DNA from: Escherichia coli
Lineage (GTDB): Bacteria; Pseudomonadota; Gammaproteobacteria; Enterobacterales; Enterobacteriaceae
Length of the DNA: 64,000 nt
Assembly: GCF_003790525.1 (NCBI RefSeq)
Contig: NZ_CP033636.1
Direction: 5' to 3' (one strand)
Below the pieces are notes generated by a model. It ran no database searches. It saw only the letters and a list, made by a program, of their open reading frames with translations, and was not told the DNA's origin. Below are positions 465 through 15,232 of this stretch, in pieces. The position numbers were made by a program, and so were the translations under genes. How positions within the stretch are numbered: the first letter of the stretch is position 1; each line of letters starts with the position of its first letter.

Positions 465-537
465 GTTTTACCTGTTGCATGAAATTATTGATGTTATATA
501 AACACAACCGGCATTTTATCTAATAGGTTTGAAAACA

Positions 538-795: not shown

Positions 796-802
796 TGAAA
801 AA

Positions 803-1393
803 TCACTCCATTTCTGGGATCGAATGAAAATTAACAGCTATAGATGTATCAGGTTTCCCATTTTCTACGATACTCAACCACGTACGCGCTGAGATTTGTT
901 GTTCACAGACGAGTATGTAACCTGTTCCCTGTTGATGATGTAGCTCAAGAGCTTTTAGGATAGGCCCTGAATGAGGTCCGAGAGCATCACGCGTGTGAAT
1001 AAGCGTTTGCTCTGGCAATACGTTGCTAAGCATAGACAGCAGAACATTACGCTCATCCTCATTATCCGACAAAACAAGAATTATACGAAAACCCGTTTTT
1101 ATACGAAATCTGATCTCTGAAACTAACTTTCTTAATCTTAATTTATATATGACCAGGCGGAATCGAGTCATCAGTAAAGAAACCACTGTGAAGATAACGA
1201 TTACTGCGCCATATTTTGACCTGTAGAACCACCAGTTAAGGCCTCCAGCAACTATCAGGATTAACATTAAAATTAAACTCCCATAGAAAAAAAGTGCTGG
1301 GTAGCGAGTTGTCTTTCCTTCAATTAGTGCTGAGGCAAATATCAAAATGGATATTCCGTAAATTACCCAGTCAAAAATACTTTCTCCAATCAT
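803..1393 (-). CDS. hypothetical membrane protein (N-terminal hydrophobic helices plus soluble C-terminal domain)
   Basis: ORF track 196 aa; N-terminal ~90 aa strongly hydrophobic (ILIFASALI..., LILMLILIVAGGLNWWF, AVIVIFTVVSLLM) followed by charged linker and soluble domain. Confidence 0.5.
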   Translation of the reverse strand: MIGESIFDWVIYGISILIFASALIEGKTTRYPALFFYGSLILMLILIVAGGLNWWFYRSKYGAVIVIFTVVSLLMTRFRLVIYKLRLRKLVSEIRFRIKTGFRIILVLSDNEDERNVLLSMLSNVLPEQTLIHTRDALGPHSGPILKALELHHQQGTGYILVCEQQISARTWLSIVENGKPDTSIAVNFHSIPEME

Positions 1394-1437
1394 TCTTTAG
1401 TGAACATCCTTAAAAGTGGAAATGTAGGTTTATGGGT

Positions 1438-1743
1438 TTATGCATTTTCCTGATGGCCTTGACAACCAAGGATTTCACAGAAATTGTCACAGTGTGAAGC
1501 TGTAACAAAGCGCTCTCCACGTTCGAATCGCTCAACCAAATCCTTTCTTACTTCACTTCCAGGTTTCTGGAAGATGTACTCAAGCTGGAGATCCTCGGCC
1601 GTAGAAAGTAGTCGTTCTATGCTGAAATCAACATGGTAAAAGCAAAACTGATTATCAACCGGGGGAAAGTTGCTTTTGGTACTGTTCTCGTTTTTGGATT
1701 TTAGTTCATTCATGAGCTCTCCTTGGTTGAGAACAGTATACAA
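1438..1743 (-). CDS. hypothetical protein (101 aa) with Cys/His cluster near C-terminus
   Basis: ORF track; C-terminal HCDNFCEILGCQGH cluster; no further assignment possible. Confidence 0.4.
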   Translation of the reverse strand: MYTVLNQGELMNELKSKNENSTKSNFPPVDNQFCFYHVDFSIERLLSTAEDLQLEYIFQKPGSEVRKDLVERFERGERFVTASHCDNFCEILGCQGHQENA

Positions 1744-1912
1744 ATCTCTTTAGGGATTTTTTTTCGTTAATAGCACTTTTTTGAGTTTAAAGAGTATGTT
1801 CATACCAGAGCATTAGAGGCTACGAAAAGGATAATGGAATTAGAAAGATAGATTTTAAGTGGTGATGTAAGGTGGGATAGGTAGAAGAGGAGTAGACGCT
1901 TGTAAGCGAGGC

Positions 1913-1937
1913 AAAAAAAAGGCACGGAAACCGTGCC
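1913..1937 (-). terminator. putative intrinsic terminator closing the long minus-strand operon
   Basis: GGCACGG-AAA-CCGTGCC hairpin (1921-1937) adjacent to A8 run on plus strand, i.e. hairpin followed by U8 on the minus-strand transcript, 40 nt downstream of the stop of the 1977-2939 gene. Confidence 0.55.
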
Positions 1938-1976
1938 ATAAGAGTATGTGAGAAAAAATCAAAATCAGGGAAAGAA

Positions 1977-2939
1977 TCAAGCAGCTTGTGAAACTGAATC
2001 TCCAACTGCAAGATTTAAATTTCTTAGGTTATCGAAAACTTCAGATACTAAGTCATTACGGTCGTGGATTTTAATCCGCCCACCGGTTAACTCTGAAACA
2101 TAAACGGTATGGCAGAGGTCAGTAACCACTTCGCCGTATTCATCAACGACTTCCAAAGATGCAATCATCGGAATATAAGAAGCCGCAGCATAGCTCTCAT
2201 AAATACTTATTATGGAGTCATTGTTGCGTCGAGAAATTACCCTACCAGAAGGTAAAGCCTCATCTTCCATATAGCAATCAGATAGGTCCTCACAGAAGTC
2301 ATTTTCTTTAAGTGAAATATTAAGGGTCAATTCACTGTTGATAGAGCGTGAATAAGAATATTCACTCAGTTTATAGCAAGCCAAACTAATATCACTAAAA
2401 GTTTCATAAGCTTTATAGAGGCTCGATGTTATAGACTCAGATACAAATGTTATTAGTCCAATAAAATGAGTATCCCAGAACTGTTGCAAAGCAAAACGGG
2501 CAATCATAACCTGACCATCAACCTGCATCAGTCTGTTATATTCATCCCGGTCATAACCTTTCGACTGAGAAACATCATTAGACATGCTAAGAACTTCACT
2601 ACAAACATCATCATATTCAAAACGACTAGTTGCAAAGTGTTTTCCTGAAATTTCAAGGTACTGACCAGAGACTGCGTCAAACACCTCAAGAAAGTAACAG
2701 AGTCGCGATTTTAAAGATTCTCTGTTTAAAGCTTCTATTTCATTCTCAGAGATACTATCGACATATAAATCAACAACATTCTTGAGTTCAATAGCTTTGA
2801 TATTACAGGTAAAAGAAAGCTCGTCACTTTGACAATGGCAAACACTTAATACTATATCCGCCTCATCAAAATCTATGCCAAGATAACTCAGAACTGCTCG
2901 GACATAGTTTTTATCATCAGATGAATGTGTCATATACAC
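1977..2939 (-). CDS. hypothetical protein, member A of tandem ~300-aa paralog family
   Basis: ORF track 320 aa; shares clear sequence blocks with the next gene upstream (VDGQVMIARFALQQFWDTHF vs VDGKVLVAKFALKQFFHSDF; DRNDLVSEVFDNLRN vs DRTLLITEAFDDFRN). Confidence 0.6.
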   Translation of the reverse strand: MYMTHSSDDKNYVRAVLSYLGIDFDEADIVLSVCHCQSDELSFTCNIKAIELKNVVDLYVDSISENEIEALNRESLKSRLCYFLEVFDAVSGQYLEISGKHFATSRFEYDDVCSEVLSMSNDVSQSKGYDRDEYNRLMQVDGQVMIARFALQQFWDTHFIGLITFVSESITSSLYKAYETFSDISLACYKLSEYSYSRSINSELTLNISLKENDFCEDLSDCYMEDEALPSGRVISRRNNDSIISIYESYAAASYIPMIASLEVVDEYGEVVTDLCHTVYVSELTGGRIKIHDRNDLVSEVFDNLRNLNLAVGDSVSQAA

Positions 2940-3104
2940 TACCTCGAATTTGAGAGGAAGTGCCCCAGAAGGGAAGCGACTTCCCCACTGGGTTAGATAA
3001 AAATTTGGTTAAGCTAAAAGAAGATGCCAGCGACAGATTTTACATTGTCATAGACAAGTGTCTTCAGCCAACCAAAGTTACTTTTTTGGACTGAAGCAAA
3101 AGGA

Positions 3105-4043
3105 TCATTGAGACGCGTTACGAAAATCGTCAAAAGCTTCAGTTATTAGTAATGTGCGATCAGTTACTCTGTATCGGTCATTACTTTCGAGAGATACGTA
3201 AGTTGAATGCGAAGAATCACAGACAACACGCCCTCTTTTATTGATCAATCTTACTTCCATCATCACCGGCACATTGATAATTGAAGCAACATCGGTATAG
3301 AGGGATATGAGGGCATCATTGTCACAATATAACGCCCCGTTCCCATCAAATGTATCGTTAAACTTAATATATATATCTGGCATATTTGCCGGATAATCAT
3401 CAGTATTGAAATCAATGCATAACTTTAAGTCATCATTAATACGGCGATTAATCTTATGCTGCCCTACACGTACAAAGCCATGTTCAACAGCTTTGATAAT
3501 CCTTAAAGTTTCATTAAGACAATCTGTAATTCTTTTCTCGACAAATGAGATAAAGTCACCAAAGTCGGAATGAAAAAACTGTTTAAGTGCAAATTTCGCA
3601 ACTAACACTTTCCCATCCACCTTCATTTTATCGAGATAAAGATTTCTTATAGCATCAGTAGAAGAATTAGCTTTAGATAACTCTTCACAGTCATTAATAA
3701 TCATTGAAACAATATCAATAACTTTAACTGGGCTTAAAGTATTACTATATCCGCGAATATCAAACGTAAAAAATCCGAAATTCTTAAATACTCCAAGAAA
3801 ATAAATTATTTTTTGTTTCAAAAGAATAGAATCGGAGTAAGATGCGTTGTGCTTTATTAGCTCAGATATGTAGAGATCCAACATACAATTTAAATTATCG
3901 ATATCTACATCGTAATCAAAGGTTACTTTGTCGAACGAAGTATCAGATAATTGAACGGTTATATCGTCAGCGGAAACATTAAGGCCTAAATTTTGATAAA
4001 GAAAGGCACTAACAAATTCCACGTGGTCAGATTCTTTAAACAT
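3105..4043 (-). CDS. hypothetical protein, member B of tandem ~300-aa paralog family
   Basis: ORF track 312 aa; paralogous to 1977-2939 (see shared blocks). Confidence 0.6.
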   Translation of the reverse strand: MFKESDHVEFVSAFLYQNLGLNVSADDITVQLSDTSFDKVTFDYDVDIDNLNCMLDLYISELIKHNASYSDSILLKQKIIYFLGVFKNFGFFTFDIRGYSNTLSPVKVIDIVSMIINDCEELSKANSSTDAIRNLYLDKMKVDGKVLVAKFALKQFFHSDFGDFISFVEKRITDCLNETLRIIKAVEHGFVRVGQHKINRRINDDLKLCIDFNTDDYPANMPDIYIKFNDTFDGNGALYCDNDALISLYTDVASIINVPVMMEVRLINKRGRVVCDSSHSTYVSLESNDRYRVTDRTLLITEAFDDFRNASQ

Positions 4044-4061
4044 TTACACTACCTCATGACT

Positions 4062-4106
4062 AAAAAGGAAGTGCTTCCCACCGGGAAGCAGGTTCCCGGA
4101 TGGGTT
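4062..4106 (-). terminator. intergenic compound GC hairpin (putative terminator/attenuator)
   Basis: Nested inverted repeats CCCATCCGGGAA...TTCCCGGTGGG and GGAAG..CTTCC with A5 on plus strand = U5 after hairpin on minus transcript; lies between stop of 4110-5030 and start of 3105-4043. Confidence 0.4.
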
Positions 4107-4109
4107 AGA

Positions 4110-5030
4110 TTAATTATAAAAGAGTTCTTCAGAAGGTACATGCATTTCTGGTTTGAACTGTTTTAAGGAGTTGTTTATAGCTTTTCGATATAACCCTGAA
4201 GAGTGTGGCTTAAACATTTGATATTCCGTAACGAGCAGAGGAGACGTAAAGCATCCTAAGTTCACTAGTGAAATACTTGATGTTTCTTCACAAACATCTA
4301 ATTCAGCGTATATCCGCCTCTTCATTACCCTGCCTGCTAAATAGCGACGAACATGATTTATAAACTTGTCCGCATCTGATATAGAATTAACTATATAATC
4401 AGATGTGACTATCTGATTAGATACAGTTTCAGGTATAGCTTCGGCTATTATTTTTACGTTCATTTCATAATCAACACTATGGAAGCAAGCAAGAATTTGT
4501 GGCTTCGCGCTTTCTAAAATCTTTTCAAGAACAGAAAAAATCAGAGAGAACTCGTTTAAAATTCGCTTTTGTATAAGTCCATGTAGATGTTTTATGAAAG
4601 GAGAACCGTGTTCAACAAGGCCTAGTATAAGATCCTTAGAGGCCAAATCTGAGCGGTAATAAACGTATTCTAGATTATCCCGGTTAAATCCTTTGAAAAG
4701 CAAATCAGGCTGCTCTGAGACCAGTCGTAAATGAGTTGAAGCTATAGAAACTTCAAAACGAAAGTTCGCGAGATTTACAGGACCTGCTTTTAATGTAGCC
4801 GCTTCGGAAAAATAAATGAAAAGAGGATGCAAATCATCGTTACCACTGTAAAGATGGTCTGCACCCTTAAGATATTTCACCAAATGAGGTAGAAAAGATA
4901 TTACTGGAATATCAGCCACAAATCGAATATGCCGAAATGGTTTTGAATCCAAATATATATTTTCCACTACAGCGCCAACAAAACCCATTTTAACAAGAAT
5001 AGATTCAACTAACTTTTGTATAGCATTCAT
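4110..5030 (-). CDS. hypothetical protein (~300-aa family, divergent member)
   Basis: ORF track 306 aa; N-terminal motif KLVESILVKMG resembles N-termini of the 5099-6049 and 6105-6983 products. Confidence 0.55.
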   Translation of the reverse strand: MNAIQKLVESILVKMGFVGAVVENIYLDSKPFRHIRFVADIPVISFLPHLVKYLKGADHLYSGNDDLHPLFIYFSEAATLKAGPVNLANFRFEVSIASTHLRLVSEQPDLLFKGFNRDNLEYVYYRSDLASKDLILGLVEHGSPFIKHLHGLIQKRILNEFSLIFSVLEKILESAKPQILACFHSVDYEMNVKIIAEAIPETVSNQIVTSDYIVNSISDADKFINHVRRYLAGRVMKRRIYAELDVCEETSSISLVNLGCFTSPLLVTEYQMFKPHSSGLYRKAINNSLKQFKPEMHVPSEELFYN

Positions 5031-5098
5031 TTCAATACCCTCTTAATAGAGGGATTTCTCCCATAGGGAGAAATCCCTATGGGAGAAAATAATTTTAA

Positions 5099-6049
5099 TT
5101 AATAATTATAGCGAAGCGCATGTTCTTTTTCACTAAGATGGTTTTCATATTCCGACTTACCAGAACTTAAACACTCTTTGAAAAAGACCTTTGAAAAATT
5201 CTTCAAGTCACTTCGGTTATTAATTTCTTTGTCAGACATCAACTTAGCTGAGTGTGAGGTATCAACAGGCCCCAACCACCATTCATATTTAATATAAACA
5301 CAATTGGTTTGTGTATGTCCATTTAGAAATCGTTTTGCATTTCTAAGTATTTTTCTACAACCGTTAAGGTCTGAAAGTAAGATATCTGGAGCAATGAGCT
5401 CTTCCAGAATATGACCAGGTAAGCCTTTCCTAAAAAGCTCAACATCGTAACTACAATACCAGTCACGATAATTAAAAGCTTTAATAAGTCTTTCAGGTGT
5501 ATCCAAAGATATCTTATTCAGGATTTTTAATGCAAAGCATACAGCATCTTTTAACAACTCGTGCACCTCAACATTGATAAATGAGAAAAACGAGCTTAAT
5601 TCTTTCTCTAAGGAATTATACAACTTACCGTAAATATCCTGAGAAAAAAGATACTGCAATCTTTCTTTATTATAAGTGCAATTCGAAATTGAATAGACTT
5701 CTCCTCTTTCGATTTTGCACCCTTCCCTTAAAACTATAGGAAACCTCAAATGGTTAACAAAGAAAGAATGATTCTTTCTTTGCTTCAAAGCATCTAATTG
5801 AAATTTCGTAATTTCCTCCAGATTTGCATCTTCAAAACCTGGAAAGGGAATATCACAGAAACAAGAACTATATGCTTTTGCTGATTCATACATAAACTCC
5901 AGTGAAACATCAGCATCAAAAGACATACCAGAGAACATGCCCTGCCCATTGTCTAAAAATGTAATGTTTTTAACCTGTATTTTTTTATGTTGAACAACCA
6001 AAAAGGCATTAATGATTTTTTCGATAATTTTCATGTGATCCTCTCTCAA
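5099..6049 (-). CDS. hypothetical protein (~300-aa family, divergent member)
   Basis: ORF track 316 aa; N-terminal KIIEKIINAFLV motif; true start may be the internal Met at residue 6. Confidence 0.55.
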   Translation of the reverse strand: MREDHMKIIEKIINAFLVVQHKKIQVKNITFLDNGQGMFSGMSFDADVSLEFMYESAKAYSSCFCDIPFPGFEDANLEEITKFQLDALKQRKNHSFFVNHLRFPIVLREGCKIERGEVYSISNCTYNKERLQYLFSQDIYGKLYNSLEKELSSFFSFINVEVHELLKDAVCFALKILNKISLDTPERLIKAFNYRDWYCSYDVELFRKGLPGHILEELIAPDILLSDLNGCRKILRNAKRFLNGHTQTNCVYIKYEWWLGPVDTSHSAKLMSDKEINNRSDLKNFSKVFFKECLSSGKSEYENHLSEKEHALRYNY

Positions 6050-6050
6050 T

Positions 6051-6094
6051 AAAAAAAGGGATCACTCCCATATGGGGTGTGATCCCCACATGGG
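6051..6094 (-). terminator. intergenic compound GC hairpin (putative terminator/attenuator)
   Basis: GGGATCAC...GTGATCCC and CCCATATGGGG inverted repeats preceded by A7 on plus strand (U7 after hairpin on minus transcript). Confidence 0.4.
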
Positions 6095-6104
6095 TATAAT
6101 TTAA

Positions 6105-6983
6105 TTAAAAATCTGTAAGACCTAAATCTTTATTTCTACCACAAACTGTAGAAGATATAAGACGTTTTACTCGCTTTCGAGCACTTCGGCCTGACGTATC
6201 TTTCAAGTACATCGGTAATGACAATGATGAAATTTGATTACTTCGCTTATGATGGCAGACTATATAGCCCTGCCTCCACCCCGAACGCACAAACTCACGG
6301 ATGCGGTTAATATATGCCGAAGCTTGAGATTTTGTACTTATCGATTCAGAACACTTTAAGTTCTGTTCGATAGAGTAAAGCTCAGCCGCCATGAATTTCA
6401 CCTCATACAGCTCATCGCCATAACTTATAGTTTTCAACAGCTCTTCCTTTTCCCGAATGAAAAATACTTGCTGCATTCCAAGGATCAGGTCATAGGCCTC
6501 TCGAAAGAGGTCGATAAGCTTATTACGAACATAAATCATAAACTCCTCAAAGTGCTGAAGCCAGAAATAAGCCGCATTACTTATTTGTGAATTGTGAGAA
6601 CAAACAAGCCCTTTAGCAAGCTCGACCTCTTCCTCCCGAAAAGTAAAGTTACTTTTCTTAAACCGACTTTGTTCAAAAATGCTTTGATGCATTTCTATCC
6701 ATACAGAAACAAAACCGAGGGATTCAAATTCTTCGTTTAACAAATGTAAACTTTCGAAGATTTTCTGAATTTCGATCCCGATGTCATATGACAGTGGACA
6801 TTCTTTTATAGAATAAACATAACCGGGTAGGAAGTGAGATAAATGCTCAGTTCGCAAATATAAACTGAATTTAAGTTCTGTCAGTGGTTGTTTCAAAGAT
6901 AACTTAGATGATTCGCTTATATTTACTGGTTCAACGCCATTTCTAATCAAAATAGCTTTTACCAGGTCCGTAGCTAACTTCAT
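6105..6983 (-). CDS. hypothetical protein (~300-aa family, divergent member)
   Basis: ORF track 292 aa; N-terminal DLVKAILIRNGV motif shared with neighbours. Confidence 0.55.
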   Translation of the reverse strand: MKLATDLVKAILIRNGVEPVNISESSKLSLKQPLTELKFSLYLRTEHLSHFLPGYVYSIKECPLSYDIGIEIQKIFESLHLLNEEFESLGFVSVWIEMHQSIFEQSRFKKSNFTFREEEVELAKGLVCSHNSQISNAAYFWLQHFEEFMIYVRNKLIDLFREAYDLILGMQQVFFIREKEELLKTISYGDELYEVKFMAAELYSIEQNLKCSESISTKSQASAYINRIREFVRSGWRQGYIVCHHKRSNQISSLSLPMYLKDTSGRSARKRVKRLISSTVCGRNKDLGLTDF

Positions 6984-7061
6984 ACAGCCTCCATTCGTTA
7001 TTGAGGCCTCCCTGATGCAGGTTGGCCATCAGGGAAAATATGTAAATCAATTAGCAATCAA

Positions 7062-7583
7062 TCAGACCGTTGCCATGACATTGTCAATGTATCTGACAAG
7101 GGATGGGCGGTCGTCCTGTAAGGCAAAACGGCGAAGGTCATCAAGATTATACGCAGGAAGATAATCAGCGTAACCTCGAATACGAAGGTCCTCAACCACA
7201 ACTTTTATATACTCAAATCGTCCAAGATTCCCTTTTAATGGGGGTTTTCCTGGACTAGACAGCATATCGTCTGCTTGCTCCCATGTGATTTCTTTAGCTT
7301 CACCACTATGTAGATCAAGATGGACATATATGAATGACTTATAATCTCCACGGCAACGAAGATAATATTTCGGATAGAAATATTTGTCACAACGCAACAA
7401 ACACGTTCCTGAAGGACGAACTACGTACAACAGGTTTCTGTCATTTTCTAATATGCTATGTTTCAAAATCGTTATATCTATCTCATTATCATGCAGCAAA
7501 TAGCATGACGATGGTTCATTGACGATGCGCGATTTTATAACAGCAGCAAATTTATTAAAAACTTCGTTAATTTGAAAATTCAT
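7062..7583 (-). CDS. hypothetical protein (173 aa)
   Basis: ORF track; within the co-directional gene string; no motif recognised. Confidence 0.5.
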   Translation of the reverse strand: MNFQINEVFNKFAAVIKSRIVNEPSSCYLLHDNEIDITILKHSILENDRNLLYVVRPSGTCLLRCDKYFYPKYYLRCRGDYKSFIYVHLDLHSGEAKEITWEQADDMLSSPGKPPLKGNLGRFEYIKVVVEDLRIRGYADYLPAYNLDDLRRFALQDDRPSLVRYIDNVMATV

Positions 7584-7774
7584 TAAAATGCTCTCCGATG
7601 TAAAACGACGAGCATCACCATAACGGTAATACTCCCGTTATGGGTTTTAATAGTTTATGGAATAACCATGTCATACAACCGACCATAGCCAGTAGTACCG
7701 CACATTTATTTAACTGAGCAAGCATCTCAGCCGTGAAAAGACCTTAAAGGCAGGTAATTATCACGAAGGAAAGC

Positions 7775-7822
7775 GGTTATCTTATCAATACAATTTTAAA
7801 ATATAATATTGATAAGATAACC
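7775..7822. promoter_or_regulatory. perfect 16-bp inverted repeat (GGTTATCTTATCAATA / TATTGATAAGATAACC) with 16-nt AT-rich spacer; candidate operator or structured site
   Basis: Read directly from sequence at 7775-7790 and 7807-7822; sits between primase stop (7854) and the next gene start (7583). Confidence 0.35.
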
Positions 7823-7841
7823 CCCCCCGCAAAAAGCGGGG
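7823..7841 (-). terminator. putative intrinsic terminator after primase gene
   Basis: CCCCCGC-AAAAA-GCGGGGG hairpin directly downstream of the 7854-9158 stop codon on the minus strand. Confidence 0.45.
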
Positions 7842-7853
7842 GAGTTATCGTTG

Positions 7854-9158
7854 TTACAGCTGATTAAGACATTCAGGAGCCCAGTGAATCGGGAATCCAT
7901 CCTGCCCTGTTAACTGGAGAACATCGTTCCAGTCGATACCCTTTTTCCCATCAGGAATATCTTGTGCTGGTTCGAAGACTTCAATTGTCAGCTTTGATGC
8001 GGGATATCGTTTAGCCAAAAACTCAACCATGCGGCTTTGAAGTCGCTGAGCAGCTTCAATACCGGCACGAGTGCCTTGTGAGTTAGCAATATCCTTATCC
8101 GCCCAGATATAAAAGTTTATAGATTTTACATCCGGCGGAGGCAGTAAAAAATCAGGAACAGTAACGTTTTCAAGGCACCATGCGGAGCTGGCTGCCCAGC
8201 ATGGTGTTGAAGTCGCTTCTACAACAGAAAGCGCGTTCTCGATCCCTTCAGCCACTCCCAGTGTCCAGGTCGAACTACCTGAATCATAGTGAGGGTCAAA
8301 CAACTGAATTGAGCCACCTGTCATATCGGCAGGAGGCTTCATCATCAGCTTTGGATTTTCTACAGGTGCCTTATCACCATTTTTGTCTACGTATGTTCTA
8401 TGAATAGTCAGAGGCCGACCTCGGGTGTCACGATAGATCGCAATCATTCCCGGATAGATAATCGATTTCTGCTTATCTTTATCCCAATAGTAGATCCGGT
8501 TATTAAAGCCTAAATCCTTTGGTAAGTGACTCAGTAAGCGGGAGATCCCACGATTACGGAGGTACAAAGCAACAGGAGTATTAGGCTTGATTTCACCGGT
8601 ATAGTGATACATCACATCAAGTTTTCGCATTCGCTTTGCCACTTCCTCTCGGTCAAGAGTTTCTGTGGCACGAACTGCTGATTTATAGCGTCGTTCATTT
8701 TCAATGTCGGCGTCAGTTAACGGAGCATGCAGATCCATCCCGAAAAAATCTGAGAGAATCTTTTTGCAAGTCTGCGTTTTACTTAATTCATAATATTTCG
8801 CCAGAACATCAATTCCGTCGCAAAACTCATTTACCGGAAAGTCATTATGGATCGCACATCCGGTATAAAGGTCTTTTTGTCGGAAACGAAACTTCGATTT
8901 CCCTGCGCCAGTAAACGGGCAAGGAACCTGGCTCGGGGCTTTTGCACAAGCGTCTTTGAAAGCAGGTATTCTTTCGAATATATACTTCCAGCCAGACACT
9001 TCAGCAATTCGAGCATGAACGAGTTTAATAAAGTGTTCAGATACTTCCTGTGGATTACGACGAAGAGCCGGGGATGCATAAGTCATGATGATCTCTCTTA
9101 TCTGGCATTGTGAGTTTCTCAATGCCTTCTGCGGTGCAGAAGACAGGGAGAAACCCAC
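7854..9158 (-). CDS. DNA primase (zinc-ribbon CHC2-like motif plus Toprim domain)
   Basis: ORF track 434 aa; CPFTGAGKSKFRF...C...H motif typical of primase zinc-binding domains (P4 alpha / plasmid primase type) and Toprim-like GVAEGIENALSV...DKD segment. Confidence 0.65.
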   Translation of the reverse strand: MGFSLSSAPQKALRNSQCQIREIIMTYASPALRRNPQEVSEHFIKLVHARIAEVSGWKYIFERIPAFKDACAKAPSQVPCPFTGAGKSKFRFRQKDLYTGCAIHNDFPVNEFCDGIDVLAKYYELSKTQTCKKILSDFFGMDLHAPLTDADIENERRYKSAVRATETLDREEVAKRMRKLDVMYHYTGEIKPNTPVALYLRNRGISRLLSHLPKDLGFNNRIYYWDKDKQKSIIYPGMIAIYRDTRGRPLTIHRTYVDKNGDKAPVENPKLMMKPPADMTGGSIQLFDPHYDSGSSTWTLGVAEGIENALSVVEATSTPCWAASSAWCLENVTVPDFLLPPPDVKSINFYIWADKDIANSQGTRAGIEAAQRLQSRMVEFLAKRYPASKLTIEVFEPAQDIPDGKKGIDWNDVLQLTGQDGFPIHWAPECLNQL

Positions 9159-9199
9159 AACGCAGAATTTAAGAAAGAGGGCCCGGGGGCCCTCAACAT

Positions 9200-9421
9200 T
9201 TATGCTTCAGTCGTGAAGCCATTATTCTCAAGACACTGTATGTAGTTATCTACAAGTAACGCAGCCTGCTGGCTATTACCCTCCGCTATAGTGACTTCGC
9301 GGAAGATTCTTTCCTGAGGGCTATCATTGCTTATAACTTCACCAACACGTCCGAAAATACGGACTTTATGCATCGCACCGACTTTTTCATGTTCTACACG
9401 GTAAGTTTTTATCTGAGTCAT
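9200..9421 (-). CDS. hypothetical protein (73 aa)
   Basis: ORF track; flanked by intergenic hairpins in the operon; no motif. Confidence 0.4.
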   Translation of the reverse strand: MTQIKTYRVEHEKVGAMHKVRIFGRVGEVISNDSPQERIFREVTIAEGNSQQAALLVDNYIQCLENNGFTTEA

Positions 9422-9448
9422 ATTTTGCTCCTTATTCCTTCATGGAGC

Positions 9449-9485
9449 AAAAAGACCCACCGGGGCCTTTTGCCCCGATTGGGTA
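9449..9485 (-). terminator. intergenic GC hairpin (putative terminator/attenuator)
   Basis: CCCACCGGGGC...GCCCCGATTGGG imperfect inverted repeat with A5 on plus strand side. Confidence 0.35.
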
Positions 9486-9492
9486 GAGTTTA

Positions 9493-11505
9493 TTAAGAAA
9501 GTATTTGATGAACTAGCTTACTGACTTCAATAGACAATAAAGAAGTATCATCAACTGTTACGAAAGTGTCCGTTTCAAAACCAATTATTTCATCAGTCTT
9601 AATACCAACACCAACGATTTCTATTCCATTACATTTAGCCTTTTCCATAACTTCGCCGATAGTAAATTCCGATTTATTCGGATAACCATCAGTTATAAGA
9701 AAAATTATTTTCCTATCGAATTGGCTGTCAAGTAACAGATCAACAGCTGCCATTAAAGCCGATCCCGTAGGGGTATAATAACCCTTACATCCAAGAGTGA
9801 ATTTCGATAGAGATTCCTCAACGCTTTGATCAAACGTTTTGATAATCTCAAATTCACTTTCCTTGAAGGGAAAGACTATATTGGAGACATGCATTTTTGA
9901 CAAACTTTCAGCGGCCATCGATAAAGCAAGATCTGACTTAATGGCATGAATATATCTTTCATCATTAGCCATTGACGCTGAAATATCACGAACTAATACG
10001 AGGCCAACATGCCCTCTATTTTTAGATTCGCTTTGAGCTCTGAAGACATCACGAACTCCCATTGGTGACAGAATTAATCGATTTCCATCGAAGGTAATTC
10101 CACGCTCATGAGTTTTGTTTCGGCCACGCATTTTAACCTGCTGTAAAACAGACAAGTCGCTACCGATTGAATGACTCAGAGACAAAGCCTCATTGTAAAC
10201 ATTCAAATCGATAAGGAGATCAGGGATATCCCATTCAGAAGCACCGAATTCGGCTTTCACGTCATCGGATACTTTTGATGCAATACCTTCAATCTCTTCA
10301 GCCAAAGCATCGTGATAATCTTCGCTATCCTCATCACTGCCAAGAAAGGCATCCAACAAATCTGCCAGTATCTCCCATTGAGCCGATGAAAAGTTACTTT
10401 CATCTTCAACGTTAGTCGAACTGGCTTCATCTGATTCACTCTCGGAAGGGTTAATCGCATCAGTATCGTCTTCAATAATGTTATCACCTGTGGGATTGCC
10501 ACCGGTGGGTTCATTATTTCCCTCGTTATCTTCAGCAAGTTCTGAAGGCTCAGAACATCCCTCTTGAGCAAGATCAGAGTTATCGGAAGTATCTGCCTGA
10601 CCTTCACTATCGTCCTCAGAATCATCCTCACGACTATCAGTCGACTCAAGCGATTTATCTTCTGATTCGGTATCGGTATCGGTATCGGTCTCGGATTCAT
10701 CATATGCCTCCTGCTCCTCCTGCTCTGTCTGCTGCTGTTGTTCCCTTGCCTCATCCCGCAGTCTCTCTAAAAGAGCCAGGGTCTTACGAGCAAGGGATTC
10801 ACAGCCCTGAGTATTTTCACAACCAAGAGCATCATGAAAAATTTCCTCAACATCAGAAATTACTGGAGAAAGTATCTTTTGGGCATAGTCAAAAAACGGA
10901 TCGAGTGTTTCTTTGTGACCTGCCTGCTGAAGGACTTTTACTCGCAATGAGTTAAGCAGATACCACTCAATAAATAGGACAGGATTTTCCGGACGAGAAG
11001 ATATATCAGGAGTCATCCTTCCGGCTTTAACCATCAGTGCGTAAGTGGCTGCAAGCCGCCGCTTTGCATCCGGATAATCGTTACCAACCTTCTCTTCCAT
11101 CTGTACATCATCGAACAGATTTATAAGCCCGGTAAGACGTTTTGCCCTGCTATAAGCTTTACGTTTCTCAGCGAGGCTCTCAAACTCTGCATTCATTCCG
11201 TCATCGAAGCGTGTAAACCCTTCAGATGACTTGAGAACACTATTAAAGGCGTCACTGTAAACCTCGCTGTCGGTATAGCGACCATGACCAGCTTCATGAC
11301 AGGTAAAACCTTCAATCAGACTGACAAAGTCATCATCGCTATAATCGCCGTTTGGTAAAACACAAACTTTATTTACAGGATCAAAATACGGTCCTTTGGT
11401 ATTGTCGTCTATTACAACTCTTACATCGCCTAAGCCGCTAATGACTTTTGCTATATTCTGTAAACGCTTAATATGGCGCGGTGATGATTTAAGATCTAAT
11501 TTCAT
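9493..11505 (-). CDS. CobT-like protein: N-terminal domain, long acidic low-complexity linker, C-terminal von Willebrand factor A (VWA) domain
   Basis: ORF track 670 aa; C-terminal VGLVLVRDISASM (DxSxS MIDAS motif) followed by VWA-like pattern; central ~120 aa stretch extremely rich in D/E/S/T (ESETDTDTDTESEDKSLESTDSREDDSEDDSEG...), as in aerobic cobaltochelatase CobT-type proteins. Confidence 0.65.
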   Translation of the reverse strand: MKLDLKSSPRHIKRLQNIAKVISGLGDVRVVIDDNTKGPYFDPVNKVCVLPNGDYSDDDFVSLIEGFTCHEAGHGRYTDSEVYSDAFNSVLKSSEGFTRFDDGMNAEFESLAEKRKAYSRAKRLTGLINLFDDVQMEEKVGNDYPDAKRRLAATYALMVKAGRMTPDISSRPENPVLFIEWYLLNSLRVKVLQQAGHKETLDPFFDYAQKILSPVISDVEEIFHDALGCENTQGCESLARKTLALLERLRDEAREQQQQTEQEEQEAYDESETDTDTDTESEDKSLESTDSREDDSEDDSEGQADTSDNSDLAQEGCSEPSELAEDNEGNNEPTGGNPTGDNIIEDDTDAINPSESESDEASSTNVEDESNFSSAQWEILADLLDAFLGSDEDSEDYHDALAEEIEGIASKVSDDVKAEFGASEWDIPDLLIDLNVYNEALSLSHSIGSDLSVLQQVKMRGRNKTHERGITFDGNRLILSPMGVRDVFRAQSESKNRGHVGLVLVRDISASMANDERYIHAIKSDLALSMAAESLSKMHVSNIVFPFKESEFEIIKTFDQSVEESLSKFTLGCKGYYTPTGSALMAAVDLLLDSQFDRKIIFLITDGYPNKSEFTIGEVMEKAKCNGIEIVGVGIKTDEIIGFETDTFVTVDDTSLLSIEVSKLVHQILS

Positions 11506-11520
11506 AGAATACCTCTTTAT

Positions 11521-11567
11521 AAAAAAGGGGTACTCACCCAGATGGTGAAGTACCCATCTGGGGTTTT
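11521..11567 (-). terminator. intergenic compound GC hairpin (putative terminator/attenuator)
   Basis: GGGTACTCACC / GGTGAAGTACCC and CCCAGATGG / CCATCTGGG inverted repeats; A6 on plus strand = U6 after hairpin on minus transcript, just upstream of next RBS. Confidence 0.4.
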
Positions 11568-11582
11568 TAATAAAGCAAACAG

Positions 11583-12710
11583 TTACCAGCCTTTGAGCTC
11601 GATATCAAAACCATTTTCAACATTGTCTTCCTGTTGCGAAACTGATTTCTCAGGTTCAGCTACAGGATCAGTGTTTGAAAACGTGCTGTTATTTATATCG
11701 TTCTCTACGACAGGTTCAACCTGGAACACATTTGTTGAATCTAAAATAGCTTCAATACCTGTGTTCTGTAGCGCGTTCGGTTCTGTTTGTGAGCTTTGAT
11801 TAAATGATCTGGTAATAGATTCCAACCAGTCAGTAACCTTTTGCTCTCCTGAAATAATACGCTTTAACATTGAAGCATCACTCATGAAATAAAACCACTG
11901 CTGTAACACCGCAACGTCGCGAGGTTCAGAAATGGCACCTTTAGGTAAATTATTCATTATGTGTTTTATAGCTTCTGCAAGTACTGCCGCCTCTTTATGT
12001 ATAAACATGAAGCTAATGATCTTATTTTGCATTTGCTTCAGTCGGTCAATAGTACTTGAGCGCAAATTGTTATTTTTGCTAATTTTTTCATAAACCTTCA
12101 TTGCTTCTTCTGCCAGATCTGTTATCAATTGTTCCTGATAGTAGTCCTGGGTTTCATCACCTTCAACGCTAATAGGCGTAAAAGGAATAAAGTGAGCAAT
12201 ATTAAATCTAAAGGATTTTATGAAATCATCTTTAGTTAATTTCAACTGATCAATCAAAGAAGACATTCTTGGGCTTCTATTTTTTTCAGCCTCAATATGC
12301 ATCTCATAATTGTCTACAACGTTTTGAATACCTGCCTGAAACTCTCGTTCAATCTCTTGGGCCCCTTCCAGAAACTCTTCCATACTGGATACTGGTAAAA
12401 TCCACATATTGCTATAGCGGATGCACAAGCGTGAGCAAAGAGTTGATATTCTGCTGGTAATCGTACTTTTGAAGCTAAGGGCTTTTATGTCAATCCAGCG
12501 TACTTCGCTTTTAGATACGCTTTTTTGATCCGTAATATCATCTCCATCATAAGACAAATCGATTTTATCGGTTCGACGCGATCCTTGACAGCCACTTATT
12601 TCAATTTTTGTTATAACTGCACCTTCCAGTAAATCTGGATATGATTTTGCAAAATTCTCAGAGATTTGTTTTGCAGATACTTTGTTAAGCATTGAAGTAT
12701 TTAAAGTCAT
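11583..12710 (-). CDS. hypothetical protein (~375 aa)
   Basis: ORF track gives 11583-12722, but the codon at 12722-12720 is TTG; the ATG at 12710-12708 with GGAG 7 nt upstream is a more plausible start. No motif recognised. Confidence 0.5.
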   Translation of the reverse strand: MTLNTSMLNKVSAKQISENFAKSYPDLLEGAVITKIEISGCQGSRRTDKIDLSYDGDDITDQKSVSKSEVRWIDIKALSFKSTITSRISTLCSRLCIRYSNMWILPVSSMEEFLEGAQEIEREFQAGIQNVVDNYEMHIEAEKNRSPRMSSLIDQLKLTKDDFIKSFRFNIAHFIPFTPISVEGDETQDYYQEQLITDLAEEAMKVYEKISKNNNLRSSTIDRLKQMQNKIISFMFIHKEAAVLAEAIKHIMNNLPKGAISEPRDVAVLQQWFYFMSDASMLKRIISGEQKVTDWLESITRSFNQSSQTEPNALQNTGIEAILDSTNVFQVEPVVENDINNSTFSNTDPVAEPEKSVSQQEDNVENGFDIELKGW

Positions 12711-12720
12711 GGGTTTCTCC

Positions 12721-12770
12721 AAAAAAAAGGGGAAACCCTCCCCAACGGGAAAGATTTCCCGATAGGGTTG
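12721..12770 (-). terminator. intergenic compound GC hairpin (putative intrinsic terminator)
   Basis: GGGGAAACCCTCCCC and CGGGAAAGATTTCCCG hairpins; A8 on plus strand = U8 following hairpin on minus transcript. Confidence 0.45.
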
Positions 12771-13078
12771 ATATTAAAGCTTCTCTGGTGAAATTAAAAG
12801 AATACCGGGAAACTCAGCAACAACATCATCATTGCCCATTGCTCCCTGATACATATAACCTTTTAATTCCATTTGTTTAATCAGACCTTCCATATTTATT
12901 TTACCATCATGATAAAACAATAAAGAATAGTCGTTATTCAGTTGCATAAGTCCAGTAAAATTAGTTCCGTTTTTTGCTATAGCAATGGTAGCAGCACCAT
13001 CCGTACTTAAAAACGCACTAAATTCAAGATGGGATAACTCTGAGATACAAATATCAGAGGTTTCATAACAAATCCCAT

Positions 13079-14137
13079 CTAACTCGACTTTTTTGCTGTG
13101 AAATACTCCAGCGATTTATCCTTGTCTTCGCCAAGAGAAAGATCTATAGCTTGAAGAACAAGATCGACCACATGTAAAGGTAAAGCAGAAGCAAAAGCTA
13201 TTTTGAAAGTGTCAAGAAGACTAAAGGTTTTTAACGTCATCGACGTGCCAACCCAAGCTACTAATTGACGAATATCCATCACACTGTCTTCTGTACCAGA
13301 GTCATTTACTGCAATCGCTACTCTTACGAACTTCTCAATGACCTGAAAAGGCAAAGAGCTATATCGTTTAGTAAGCACATTGGTTAAAGCAACTTTGTCG
13401 GGCTTCTCCATTTCAACTATCAAGAACCGCTTTATAAAAGCTGCATCTTGACGTTGAGAAGAAACGAACCGGCGAGCGCCTCCACTCATGTTTGTGTTTG
13501 CAGTACCAATAAATCGCGTGTAGCCATTAGCAGTTATAACCTCACCACCATTAGCACTGAGTGACCAGGGCTTACGTTCAATGGGCATGTGAAGTTTTGC
13601 TGCCGTATCAGGATCGATTTTGTCCACTTCATCCAGAAGAATGAGGTGACCATTACGAAATCCCGTTACCAAATCGCTGTGTACAAAACCTGTATTACCA
13701 CCATTAAGACTGCGCTCACCTTCAAGCTCATCAACTCGAATATTGCTGTTGATCTGCTTAATTGTCAGCGGCCAATTCATCATGTGGCTAATGTACATTA
13801 CCATTTCAGTCTTGCCAGAACCGGACTCACCTTTAAGACACACACTTAAATCTATATCCGGACTGATAAGCAGTTTAACCACTTGTTCAAGTATTCGGGG
13901 ATTTGGTATGTAGTCTTTGTTCAGCGGAGCTCGATACGAGGTTTTAGTTTTGAAAACAGGCACAGCCATCTTTGGATCCATTTCTGGAATACCAAAAAGG
14001 TCCTTTGCTAGAACTAAAAGATACTCACCTTTATCCACATAATGTTTTAACTTTATAACATCCGGGGAAAGAAGAGCTTCTAATTTTTCATAAGCATCAG
14101 AAGATGTTTCATTTAACTTCATAGCGGCATTAGACAT
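13079..14137 (-). CDS. AAA+ ATPase, MoxR/CobS-like
   Basis: ORF track 352 aa; Walker A GESGSGKTE, Walker B hhhhDE (LILLDEVDK), size and motif spacing as in CobS/MoxR-class ATPases; encoded in the same operon as the CobT-like VWA protein. Confidence 0.7.
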   Translation of the reverse strand: MSNAAMKLNETSSDAYEKLEALLSPDVIKLKHYVDKGEYLLVLAKDLFGIPEMDPKMAVPVFKTKTSYRAPLNKDYIPNPRILEQVVKLLISPDIDLSVCLKGESGSGKTEMVMYISHMMNWPLTIKQINSNIRVDELEGERSLNGGNTGFVHSDLVTGFRNGHLILLDEVDKIDPDTAAKLHMPIERKPWSLSANGGEVITANGYTRFIGTANTNMSGGARRFVSSQRQDAAFIKRFLIVEMEKPDKVALTNVLTKRYSSLPFQVIEKFVRVAIAVNDSGTEDSVMDIRQLVAWVGTSMTLKTFSLLDTFKIAFASALPLHVVDLVLQAIDLSLGEDKDKSLEYFTAKKSS

Positions 14138-14194
14138 TTTTAACTCCGGTAAAATGCAAACACCGCCCTCTGGCAGATGTTTGCCAGTGGCATT

Positions 14195-15172
14195 TTATTT
14201 GAGATTCATTTGGCAAATAGTTGCCATCAGTTTCCTGATTTGAGGCACATTATAACCAAGATGATTTCCCACTATTTCAAAAGCTTCAGACATGATCCAT
14301 TCAAAATGATTTTCGAATATTGGATTGATTTCTAACTTGCCAAAAGCGTTTCGTTTAGTTAACAGATCACATGAAACAAGCTCGTCAAACAACTCTAATG
14401 TGGATTTAAAAGCTTTTATGTAAACATCCATAATTTCCCTGTCAGTCCATTTAACAGCCAGTTTTTTTTCTGACATTAAATAATCCTGATCAAAGAAGAT
14501 GTCCCAGCCCATATCGTCATTGCAATCATGCAAAATGATTTCATCATCATTCCTGCATTCAGCTAATTTCGTGTTTTCACTAATCGAACGATGCGAATGA
14601 TAATAGAGCCATGATTTTAATTCCGCTCTAAATTCACATGCATCAAGTCCATGACATAAACAAGTGTATTCAAATGATTTTGACATATACCACCGTGTTT
14701 CAGCTTCTAAAAGTGGATTCACTGTGATATTACCATTGTCATCTTTGAAGAATAACTTTCTCCTCAACACTAGTTCTTTAATGATTTCCAAAGACTCTTC
14801 CATAGCGGATAGAAAAACAACATACACATCCTCAGGGGTCCATTCTATTACCAGACCACCCAAATCTGGGTTATATTCTTCAACCGTATATAGATAATCT
14901 GTTTCTGCTGCAAAATTAATTGTATGCAAAATCTGATTTTTAAGTAATTTGGATTTTTCATAAAGGTGATTTTCACGCCTTTCAGAATCATAATTTATCT
15001 CAGAAATGTTACTTTCTTCTGATTTAAAGTTTAATCCGGACGTGTAAGCATCATTTAAATGCTCTTTGGGTGAATCAACTATTTGCGTTATTTCATCTTC
15101 ATCTATATCGAGTATAGAAAAAAAACTAAGTTGATTACTACTTATTGCAGTAGCCCTAAATTTTTGTTTCAT
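14195..15172 (-). CDS. hypothetical protein (325 aa)
   Basis: ORF track; no motif recognised. Confidence 0.5.
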   Translation of the reverse strand: MKQKFRATAISSNQLSFFSILDIDEDEITQIVDSPKEHLNDAYTSGLNFKSEESNISEINYDSERRENHLYEKSKLLKNQILHTINFAAETDYLYTVEEYNPDLGGLVIEWTPEDVYVVFLSAMEESLEIIKELVLRRKLFFKDDNGNITVNPLLEAETRWYMSKSFEYTCLCHGLDACEFRAELKSWLYYHSHRSISENTKLAECRNDDEIILHDCNDDMGWDIFFDQDYLMSEKKLAVKWTDREIMDVYIKAFKSTLELFDELVSCDLLTKRNAFGKLEINPIFENHFEWIMSEAFEIVGNHLGYNVPQIRKLMATICQMNLK

Positions 15173-15180
15173 GGGGACTC

Positions 15181-15225: not shown

Positions 15226-15232
15226 TTTAATG

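What the first reader, a model, noticed from the sequence alone, without database searches (positions are those of the whole stretch)
7775..7841. Perfect 16-bp inverted repeat with AT-rich spacer next to the primase gene
GGTTATCTTATCAATA and its exact reverse complement are separated by 16 AT-rich nucleotides and abut a G/C hairpin terminator. A perfect palindrome of this length is unlikely by chance in AT-rich DNA. Candidate roles are an operator for a dimeric regulator, a structured single-strand initiation site used by the adjacent primase, or a recombination site.
Basis: seen in the sequence. Interest (0 to 1): 0.35.

Follow-up and report, generated by a model that had tools for sequence, protein, structure and literature searches.

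The report
Conserved hairpin behind a plasmid terminator
The perfect palindrome is real and is kept in every related IncHI plasmid lineage examined as a roughly 20-base-pair A/U-rich stem-loop, not as a fixed sequence, so it is most likely an ordinary RNA hairpin in a double transcription terminator after the primase-like gene rather than a protein-binding, priming or recombination site.

Summary
GGTTATCTTATCAATA (7775-7790) and its exact reverse complement (7807-7822) flank a 16-nt A/T spacer and abut a G/C hairpin. This is the longest perfect inverted repeat in the 64-kb window: 16 nt, against at most 13 in 40 shuffles.

The window is an IncHI2 plasmid. The palindrome lies in the 270-bp gap between a toprim/DUF7146 primase-like gene and a 173-aa gene, both on the - strand.

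Across 13 sequence variants (IncHI2, IncHI1 and five further lineages) the arm sequences differ almost completely. An 18-23 bp A/U-rich hairpin is nevertheless always present at the same spot:
- 14 of 20 pairs show changes on both sides.
- It starts in the G-run of the G/C hairpin.
- Its 5' arm is that hairpin's U-rich tail.
- A U-rich tract follows it on the sense strand.

No second copy exists on the plasmid, and neither a promoter-like site nor a nearby DNA-binding protein was found.

Best reading: a sense-strand RNA stem-loop forming the second half of a compound, fail-safe terminator or processing site. An operator or recombination site is disfavoured. An ssDNA priming site cannot be excluded but is unsupported. 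Interest is low, although the adjoining, unusually conserved structured leader deserves a separate look.

The parts
7854..9086 (-). Toprim/DUF7146 primase-like gene (the ORF can extend to 9158); stop codon at 7854-7856
   Evidence: ORF list. Pfam DUF7146 and Toprim_3. PHROG_510 'DNA primase' at E 1.4e-27. RefSeq annotation.
7816..7849 (-). T1, a G/C-rich terminator-like hairpin. The core is 7822-7844 (CUCCCCCGC-UUUUU-GCGGGGGGG). It can be extended by GAUAAC (7849-7844) pairing with GUUAUC (7821-7816). It starts 9 nt after the stop codon.
   Evidence: Called terminator-like on the - strand in the window and in relatives. The six core pairs are 100% paired in 13 variants, with two U.G wobbles that pair only on the sense strand. 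GATAACT is invariant in all lineages.
7775..7822 (-). H2, the reported palindrome: arms 7775-7790 and 7807-7822, centre 7791-7806. As sense-strand RNA it forms a 17+2 bp A/U-rich stem-loop. Its 5' arm (7822-7807) is also the U-rich tail of T1.
   Evidence: the repeat is real and non-random. (minimum-free-energy fold). (covariation). (18-23 pairs in all 13 variants).
7764..7774 (-). U-rich tract GCUUUCCUUCG directly 3' of H2 on the sense strand
   Evidence: Present in all 13 variants as (G/A)(C/A)UUUCCUU, GUUUUUCUU or GUUUUUUAU (alignment; sequences).
7584..7763 (-). Highly conserved, hairpin-rich leader of the 173-aa gene. It contains a hairpin with a U-rich tail at about 7731-7765, CUGAG/CUCAG at 7714-7732, the ssNA-helicase-like hairpin at 7618-7643, and a hairpin at 7587-7616 that pairs the Shine-Dalgarno sequence. 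It is context for H2, not part of the palindrome.
   Evidence: Identity of 0.92-0.95 between IncHI2 and IncHI1 at 7671-7730, against about 0.75 in the genes. Folding z-score of -8.0. Rfam partial hit.
7062..7583 (-). Downstream 173-aa gene of unknown function, syntenic in all lineages
   Evidence: No Pfam, NCBIfam, PHROG or PDB match.

Best explanation
The palindrome is the DNA image of a roughly 20-bp A/U-rich stem-loop (H2) that forms in the sense (- strand) transcript just after the toprim gene. Together with the G/C hairpin T1 it makes a compound terminator. T1 sits only 9 nt after the stop codon, and its U-rich tail is the 5' arm of H2. A transcript that reads through T1 completes H2, which is closed by two G-C pairs and followed within 1-3 nt by a U-rich tract. 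This gives a second, fail-safe chance to terminate or to form a protected or processed 3' end. Shown: the repeat is non-random, and pairing rather than sequence is conserved at a fixed position and length. Also shown: U-tracts follow both hairpins on the sense strand only, and the site is unique on the plasmid. Inferred: that the hairpin acts as RNA, and that it terminates or stabilises transcripts. Also inferred: that a ribosome at the nearby stop codon weakens T1, which would make a back-up hairpin useful (based on established knowledge that terminators very close to stop codons are occluded by ribosomes).
For: Conservation of pairing: the stem sequences fall into at least four unrelated types (UUAUCUUAUCAAUA, UUAUCUCUUUAGUG, (U)CCUUUUUAAUA, CCUAUUAAAC), yet every one of 13 variants folds into 18-23 pairs with sense-strand RNA energies of -12 to -25 kcal/mol. 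On the 13-variant alignment, 14 of 20 H2 pairs have changes on both sides and 91% of cells are paired, against 46-57% when the partners are slid. None of 500 shuffles reached the observed values (earlier subsets). Sequence identity: the palindrome is the least conserved 60-nt stretch of the region (0.55 between IncHI2 and IncHI1) while its flanks are at 0.87-0.95. Loops are free to vary: the only differences among IncHI2 plasmids that are at least 99% identical fall in the two hairpin loops. Strand: all genes are on the - strand. U-rich tracts follow T1 and H2 on the - strand in all variants, while on the + strand H2 is followed by a C-run. There are 16 G.U cells that pair only on the sense strand, against 6 A.C cells that would pair only on the antisense strand. 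T1 has two sense-only U.G wobbles. RNA versus DNA: in the R27 lineage the hairpin is -13.3 kcal/mol as RNA but only -4.5 kcal/mol (z -2.0) as DNA. Context: terminator-like hairpins follow nearly every gene of this cluster. Uniqueness: no other copy of the half-site or of the T1+H2 module was found on the plasmid.
Against: There is no transcript data, so termination or processing at H2 is not shown. H2 is atypical for an intrinsic terminator: its stem is 18-23 bp and 71-81% A+U, and the consensus scan never calls it. In IncHI2 the U-tract (GCUUUCCUU) is weak. The strand preference is not universal: in L047 and L060 the + strand hairpin is the more stable one, and in L057 and L058 the two strands are about equal. 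The 13 variants represent perhaps 5-8 independent lineages. The largest alignment was fitted to the model structure, which inflates pair counts. Template-switch 'correction' of quasi-palindromes can create paired changes without selection. If T1 and H2 terminate efficiently, the downstream gene needs a promoter, and none is recognisable.
Confidence: 0.5

Rival explanations
1. RNA processing or stability hairpin rather than a terminator. The roughly 20-bp duplex in read-through polycistronic mRNA is cut by RNase III, or blocks 3' exonucleases. This would uncouple the stability and expression of the toprim message from the downstream genes, as the long hairpin after the rpsO terminator does in the rpsO-pnp intergenic region of E. 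coli.
For: The duplex length is held at 18-23 bp, about two helical turns, in all variants despite sequence turnover. No promoter-like site is found in the gap in three lineages, which suggests the downstream genes depend on read-through. Both U-tracts are imperfect in IncHI2.
Against: No cleavage data exist. The conserved U-rich tract right after H2 is not needed for an RNase III site. Internal C.C or U.C mismatches occur in the IncHI1-type stems.
Confidence: 0.15
2. Single-stranded DNA hairpin used as a priming or loading site (ssi-like) by the adjacent toprim primase-like protein or by the host primosome, during conjugative or vegetative replication.
For: It is adjacent to a primase-like gene. 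Structure rather than sequence is conserved. The whole 286-nt gap is hairpin-rich on both strands (z -8.0 and -6.2). A neighbouring hairpin (7618-7643) closely resembles the first hairpin of Rfam ssNA-helicase. From my own recollection, the authors of that motif thought it might act as ssDNA.
Against: As DNA the hairpin is marginal in the R27 lineage (-4.5 kcal/mol, 9 of 200 shuffles as good). Many stem pairs are G.U. The sense-strand U-tracts after each hairpin are a terminator feature, not a feature of priming sites. The site is roughly 120 kb from mobI/mobH, where oriT is expected. Klebsiella IncHI1B/FIB plasmids keep the toprim gene but have only a 68-nt gap with a plain terminator and no match to the model. 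Some plasmids carry IS-disrupted toprim genes.
Confidence: 0.1
3. Palindromic operator or activator site for a dimeric DNA-binding protein that controls the 173-aa gene and the genes after it.
For: It is a perfect inverted repeat upstream of the next gene. The half-sites are 32 bp apart centre to centre, about three helical turns. The outer GGTTAT/ATAACC is conserved in most lineages. A -10-like GATAAT or GAAAAT (7757-7762) would place the palindrome at about -25 to -72.
Against: The inner half-site sequence changes completely between lineages whose neighbouring proteins are 61-78% identical, while self-complementarity is kept. A protein site has no need for that. There are G.U-type asymmetries, and the centre varies by indels among near-identical plasmids. 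No other copy exists on the plasmid. No promoter passes the scan. No neighbour has a DNA-binding signature.
Confidence: 0.07
4. No function of its own: a quasi-palindrome next to a terminator that has been made perfect by template-switching during replication and is tolerated.
For: The arms are perfect only in IncHI2; relatives carry mismatches. Template switching produces paired changes without selection (established knowledge). The A/T-run centre shows slippage-type variation.
Against: A hairpin of the same length, at the same position, with the same G-C closing pairs and the same following U-tract is found in all 13 variants. These include lineages with unrelated stems. The surrounding non-coding DNA is under strong constraint.
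Confidence: 0.08

Closest known systems
Tandem or compound Rho-independent terminators (for example rrnB T1-T2)
   Same: Two successive stem-loops lie on the sense strand, directly after a stop codon, and each is followed by a U-rich tract. The first is a classic G/C hairpin. The scan calls T1 in several lineages.
   Different: The second stem is 18-23 bp and 71-81% A+U, far longer and weaker per pair than usual. It overlaps the first terminator, because its 5' arm is T1's U-tail. The scan does not call it, and termination has not been measured.
Intercistronic RNase III or stability hairpins (rpsO-pnp leader hairpin, T7 early-region R sites, REP-type stabilisers)
   Same: A long duplex of about two helical turns lies between cistrons, downstream of a terminator, in a unit that appears to lack its own promoter.
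   Different: No cleavage or stability data exist. A conserved U-tract follows the hairpin. There is no sequence relation to these sites.
Single-strand initiation signals and ssDNA promoters of plasmids (G4-type ssi, RSF1010 ssiA/ssiB, F Frpo)
   Same: Conserved hairpins next to a plasmid primase-like gene, with structure conserved more than sequence.
   Different: The site is not near oriT or oriV. It is marginal as DNA in one lineage. The 16-23 bp stem is too short to hold -35 and -10 boxes as Frpo does. It is absent from relatives that keep the toprim gene. Priming was not tested.
Rfam RF03070 ssNA-helicase motif (relevant to the neighbouring hairpin 7618-7643, not to the palindrome)
   Same: CCAUAACGG-GAGUAUUA-CCGUUAUGG matches model positions 3-29 (consensus cCaUAAGGGuUAGUAUUACCCUUAuGg), including the loop.
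   Different: Only 27 of 49 model positions match. The score is 23.4 bits against a gathering score of 41.5. The downstream gene is not a helicase. The palindrome itself matches no Rfam family.

Membership tests
Rho-independent terminator | G/C-rich stem-loop with a short loop on the sense strand just after the gene (T1) | tested here: met
   A hairpin of 9-10 pairs with 8 G-C pairs, called in the window, in L004 and in L057. The core pairs are 100% paired in 13 variants.
Rho-independent terminator | U-rich tract within 0-3 nt of the 3' end of the stem (for H2, the palindrome) | tested here: met
   All 13 variants have 5-7 U in the 8 nt that begin 1-3 nt after the stem, on the sense strand only.
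Rho-independent terminator | Compact, G/C-rich stem of typical size (for H2) | tested here: not met
   The stem is 18-23 pairs and 71-81% A+U. The scan does not call it in any lineage.
Rho-independent terminator | RNA 3' ends generated at the site | not testable with these tools
   No transcript data are available. No paper on this region was found.
Palindromic operator of a dimeric regulator | Half-site sequence conserved among related replicons | tested here: not met
   Identity is 0.55 across the palindrome against 0.87-0.95 in its flanks. There are at least four unrelated stem sequences.
Palindromic operator of a dimeric regulator | Adjoins or overlaps a recognisable promoter; further sites or a cognate regulator gene nearby | tested here: not met
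   No promoter-like site. No other copy on about 236 kb of the plasmid. The neighbouring proteins have no DNA-binding domain hits.
ssi / primosome assembly site / ssDNA promoter | Stable hairpin as single-stranded DNA | tested here: inconclusive
   The DNA energy is -12.8 kcal/mol in IncHI2 and -13.8 in L047, but -4.5 (z -2.0) in the R27 type.
ssi / primosome assembly site / ssDNA promoter | Position in the leading region or at an origin | tested here: not met
   mobI/mobH lie at 53-57 kb and repHI2 at 1 kb of pMS8345A; the palindrome is at 179.8 kb.
ssi / primosome assembly site / ssDNA promoter | Site-specific primer synthesis on the single strand | not testable with these tools
   This needs a biochemical or M13-rescue assay.
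RNase III processing site | Duplex of about 20 bp or more in the transcript | tested here: met
   18-23 pairs in all variants. Cleavage itself cannot be tested here.
Site-specific recombination site | Rearrangement junctions at the site, or an adjacent recombinase | tested here: not met
   1,166 of 1,183 plasmids align across it in one place. The split alignments inspected are IS insertions inside the toprim gene. No recombinase gene lies within 8 kb.
Any Rfam family | Score at or above the family's gathering threshold | tested here: not met
   The best hits on the palindrome are miRNA-precursor models at 27.6 bits against a gathering score of 85. These are generic long-hairpin matches.

The most novel reading that the evidence does not exclude
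The palindrome is one module of a roughly 270-nt, unusually conserved array of hairpins between the toprim gene and the 173-aa gene. On this reading the array acts as a single-stranded nucleic-acid element rather than as a set of terminators. It could be a loading or priming site for the plasmid's primase-like protein, related to the uncharacterised ssNA-helicase motif. Alternatively it could be a sense/antisense RNA control region (FinP-like) governing a conserved IncHI backbone operon.
Probability: 0.1. Interest if true: 0.6.

Novelty: new member of a known kind. Interest (0 to 1): 0.2.

Why it matters
IncHI1 and IncHI2 plasmids carry typhoid multidrug resistance, mcr-1 and many other resistance genes, and most of their backbone is unannotated. 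Showing that this eye-catching palindrome is most likely a terminator-type RNA hairpin keeps it from being misread as an operator, origin or recombination hotspot. It also marks an operon boundary or attenuation point in a conserved cluster (CobS-like ATPase, DUF3150, VWA, toprim) of unknown function. The practical lead is the adjoining leader, which is more conserved than the genes around it. That leader is a better candidate for a new cis-regulatory element than the palindrome itself.

Tried and rejected
- **Rfam:** the region, the whole window and 150 kb of the rest of the plasmid gave nothing at threshold for the palindrome.
- **Other copies:** no other copy of the half-site (up to 3 mismatches) or of the T1+H2 covariance model was found in the window or on the plasmid.
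- **Genome-contig scan:** a conserved 19-mer returned only one true relative of an already known type, plus chance hits.
- **Tus/Ter fork trap:** I considered this because the plasmid encodes a Tus-like protein. The arms do not resemble Ter, and a Ter-like site lies elsewhere, so I rejected it.
- **Small-protein reading of the conserved gap:** a 36-aa ORF on the - strand is frameshifted in IncHI1 and its substitutions are mostly non-synonymous, so I rejected it (by inspection).
- **Other binding sites and promoters, checked by eye:** IHF, Fur-box, DnaA-box, sigma-54, ops/RfaH, UP-element and a promoter inside the hairpin. None fits or is conserved across lineages.
- **Leading-region or Frpo-type ssDNA promoter:** rejected on position and because the stem is too short.
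- **Neighbouring proteins:** no family or structure match that would name a regulator.
- **Literature:** searches on IncHI with ssDNA promoter, toprim, primase or transcription start sites found nothing on this region. The supplement describing the ssNA-helicase motif was not available.
- **Excluded records:** CP044306 and pYSP8-1 look like error-prone assemblies and were left out.

Full report
**What is there.** Reading the sequence confirms the finding. GGTTATCTTATCAATA at 7775-7790 and its exact reverse complement at 7807-7822 are separated by 16 nt (caattttaaaatataa, 15/16 A/T). They are followed at once by a C-run, AAAAA loop and G-run hairpin at 7822-7844. With three mismatches the symmetry runs almost to the centre: 23-nt arms, 87% complementary, 2 nt apart. 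It is the longest perfect inverted repeat with a spacer of 40 nt or less in the window. In 40 dinucleotide-preserving shuffles the longest such repeat was 9-13 nt, against 16 observed.

**Where it is.** The window is an IncHI2 plasmid. A 2.2-kb stretch around the site is at least 99% identical in 1,117 plasmid records, mostly typed IncHI2A, MOBH, MPF_F. The window covers the Tra2 transfer genes and, downstream of trhI, a run of genes all on the - strand: a CobS-like AAA ATPase, DUF3150, a VWA protein, a 73-aa protein, a toprim/DUF7146 protein, then hypothetical proteins.
- The palindrome lies in the 270-bp gap between the toprim gene (7854-9086; PHROG_510 'DNA primase', E 1.4e-27) and a 173-aa gene (7062-7583).
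- That gene has no family or structure match.
- On the - strand the order is: stop codon, 9 nt, G/C hairpin T1, palindrome H2, GCUUUCCUUCG, then a 180-nt leader.
- Terminator-like G/C hairpins follow nearly every gene of this cluster.
- RefSeq annotates nothing in the gap.

**Is it one of several sites?** No. Allowing three mismatches, the half-site occurs only in the two arms in the window and on about 236 kb of a complete IncHI2 plasmid, pMS8345A. A covariance model of T1+H2 finds no other copy there. The putative oriT region (mobI/mobH, 53-57 kb) and repHI2 (1 kb) are far from the site (179.8 kb).

**Comparative evidence.** I collected the same gap from three sources:
- IncHI2 subtypes, IncHI1 (R27/pHCM1 type) and an 'IncHI1B+IncP' Citrobacter/Klebsiella type.
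- Two metagenomic lineages, found with a conserved 19-mer.
- Five more lineages, found through homologues of the 173-aa protein.

All are syntenic. The toprim proteins of the two metagenomic lineages (L047, L035) are 74-78% identical to the window's, and the 173-aa proteins across the lineages are 55-78% identical.

The result is clear. The palindrome is the least conserved stretch in sequence (0.55 identity between IncHI2 and IncHI1 over 7761-7820), while neighbouring non-coding DNA reaches 0.92-0.95 and the genes about 0.75. Yet every one of the 13 variants has a hairpin of 18-23 pairs at exactly this place. The stems are of at least four unrelated sequences, and the sense-strand RNA energies run from -12 to -25 kcal/mol.

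Pair counts on the 13-variant alignment:
- 14 of 20 H2 pairs have changes on both sides.
- 91% of cells are paired, against 46-57% when partners are slid by 1-3 columns.
- None of 500 shuffles reached the observed values.
- Smaller, structure-blind alignments give the same picture.

Among IncHI2 plasmids that are otherwise at least 99% identical, the only differences in this stretch fall in the two hairpin loops.

Caveats: the variants stand for perhaps 5-8 independent lineages, and the largest alignment was fitted to the structure. Template switching can also generate paired changes without selection.

**Which molecule and which strand.** Several features point to the sense (- strand) transcript.
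- *U-tracts.* T1 and H2 are each followed by a U-rich tract on the - strand in all variants (UUAUCUU or CUUUUU after T1; UUUCCUU, UUUUUCUU or UUUUUUAU after H2). On the + strand H2 is followed by a C-run.
- *Wobble pairs.* 16 pair cells are G.U (paired only on the sense strand), against 6 A.C (paired only on the antisense strand). T1 carries two independent sense-only U.G wobbles.
- *RNA versus DNA.* As RNA the R27-type hairpin is -13.3 kcal/mol. As DNA it is -4.5 kcal/mol, no better than 9 of 200 shuffles.

The preference is not absolute. In L047 and L060 the + strand folds better.

**Most likely mechanism.** H2 is the second stem-loop of a compound terminator.
- T1 is a classic G/C hairpin called by the scan in several lineages. 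Its stem starts only 9 nt after the stop codon.
- Its tail is imperfect in IncHI2, and that tail is the 5' arm of H2.
- T1 can also be extended by invariant GAUAAC pairing with GUUAUC, so the base of H2 and the extended T1 compete for the same bases.
- Transcripts that escape T1 finish H2, which is closed by two G-C pairs and followed by a U-tract. This gives a second termination or 3'-end-protection point.

The idea that a ribosome on the stop codon weakens T1 is an inference from established knowledge of ribosome-terminator interference. What has been shown is the anatomy and its conservation. Termination itself has not been shown.

H2 is far longer and more A/U-rich than standard terminators, and the scan never calls it. 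A processing or stability role, such as an RNase III-type hairpin like the one in the rpsO-pnp gap, is therefore a serious variant. That reading is strengthened by the absence of any promoter-like site in the gap in three lineages.

**Rivals.**
- *Operator.* Disfavoured. A protein site has no reason to keep self-complementarity while its sequence turns over. There is also no second site, no promoter and no candidate regulator.
- *Recombination site.* Disfavoured. Of the 1,183 plasmids, 1,166 align across it in one place, and the split alignments inspected are IS insertions inside the toprim gene.
- *ssDNA priming site for the adjacent primase-like protein.* Cannot be excluded, but several points count against it. 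The DNA stability is marginal in one lineage, and the U-tracts are a terminator feature. The site is far from oriT, and Klebsiella IncHI1B/FIB plasmids keep the toprim gene with only a 68-nt gap and a plain terminator.
- *Functionless quasi-palindrome.* Unlikely, given the constant position, length, closing pairs and following U-tract in all lineages.

**Comparison with what is known.** The element works like a tandem intrinsic terminator or an intercistronic RNA hairpin. It meets the terminator features of position, orientation and U-tract, but not that of a compact G/C-rich stem. It is not a member of any Rfam family. I found no paper describing it. I therefore rate it a new member of a known kind, of low interest in itself.

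**What is more interesting nearby.** The leader 7584-7774 is more conserved than the flanking genes and folds into a chain of hairpins (z -8.0).
- One hairpin (7618-7643) closely matches the first hairpin of the uncharacterised Rfam motif ssNA-helicase, but scores below threshold (23.4 bits against 41.5).
- The last hairpin pairs the Shine-Dalgarno sequence of the 173-aa gene.
- On the + strand these two hairpins plus a U-tail resemble a FinP-type antisense RNA. This is untested.

This leader, rather than the palindrome, is where something new might be found.

Noticed in passing
window 7584-7774 (- strand): The leader of the 173-aa gene is more conserved than the surrounding genes: 0.92-0.95 identity between IncHI2 and IncHI1 at 7671-7730, against about 0.75 in coding DNA. 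It folds into a chain of hairpins (z -8.0). It is invariant over long blocks in 12 lineages. Its function is unknown.
   Followed up: partly
window 7618-7643 (- strand): The hairpin CCAUAACGG-GAGUAUUA-CCGUUAUGG matches positions 3-29 of Rfam RF03070 (ssNA-helicase), including the loop. The score is 23.4 bits, below the gathering score of 41.5. It shows one compensatory change and one sense-only wobble change in IncHI1. No full-length copy of that motif occurs elsewhere on the plasmid.
   Followed up: partly
window 7587-7653 (+ strand): Read on the + strand, the hairpin that covers the Shine-Dalgarno sequence and start codon of the 173-aa gene, then the 7618-7643 hairpin, then GUUUUAAUAG, look like a short cis-antisense RNA of the FinP/CopA kind. 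The scan calls the second hairpin terminator-like on that strand in three lineages. No promoter has been confirmed.
   Followed up: no
window 7620-7727 (- strand): A 36-aa hydrophobic ORF (MLAQLNKCAVLLAMVGCMTWLF...) lies inside the conserved leader. It is frameshifted in IncHI1 and its substitutions are mostly non-synonymous, so it is probably not a gene.
   Followed up: yes
window 5051-5077 and 15186-15212: Two intergenic hairpins in the same gene cluster share the identical 11-nt arm GGAGAAATCCC. That gives 4 occurrences, against 0.96 expected by chance. At 5050-5088 two overlapping inverted repeats of 13 and 15 nt give alternative hairpins.
   Followed up: partly
window 1-17000 (- strand): Nearly every gene downstream of trhI is followed by its own terminator-like G/C hairpin: 29 sites found, against 12.6 expected in shuffles. 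This suggests stepwise attenuation or mRNA-end protection along the cluster.
   Followed up: no
L005 (CP122839) 2474-3702; NZ_CP055552.1: The toprim gene is interrupted by an IS3-family element or by IS903B in some otherwise intact IncHI2 plasmids. One of these is typed as conjugative by prediction. The gene may therefore be dispensable for maintenance.
   Followed up: no
L020 (CP044306) and L024 (pYSP8-1), aligned to window 7775-7850: These two public records are garbled exactly at the palindrome and at homopolymer runs. This is probably long-read assembly error and not biological variation.
   Followed up: partly
L028 8698-8713 (pMS8345A 58698-58713, - strand); L030 19072-20034: A Ter-like sequence, TTTAAGTTGTAACTAA, lies near the Tra1/oriT region of a plasmid that encodes a Tus-like terminus-binding protein.
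   Followed up: no
L008 4316-4383 (Klebsiella IncHI1B/FIB plasmid pMB5632_2): This more distant relative keeps the VWA, toprim and downstream gene order. However, its gap is only 68 nt with one plain terminator, so the long structured gap is specific to the IncHI1/IncHI2-like clade.
   Followed up: yes
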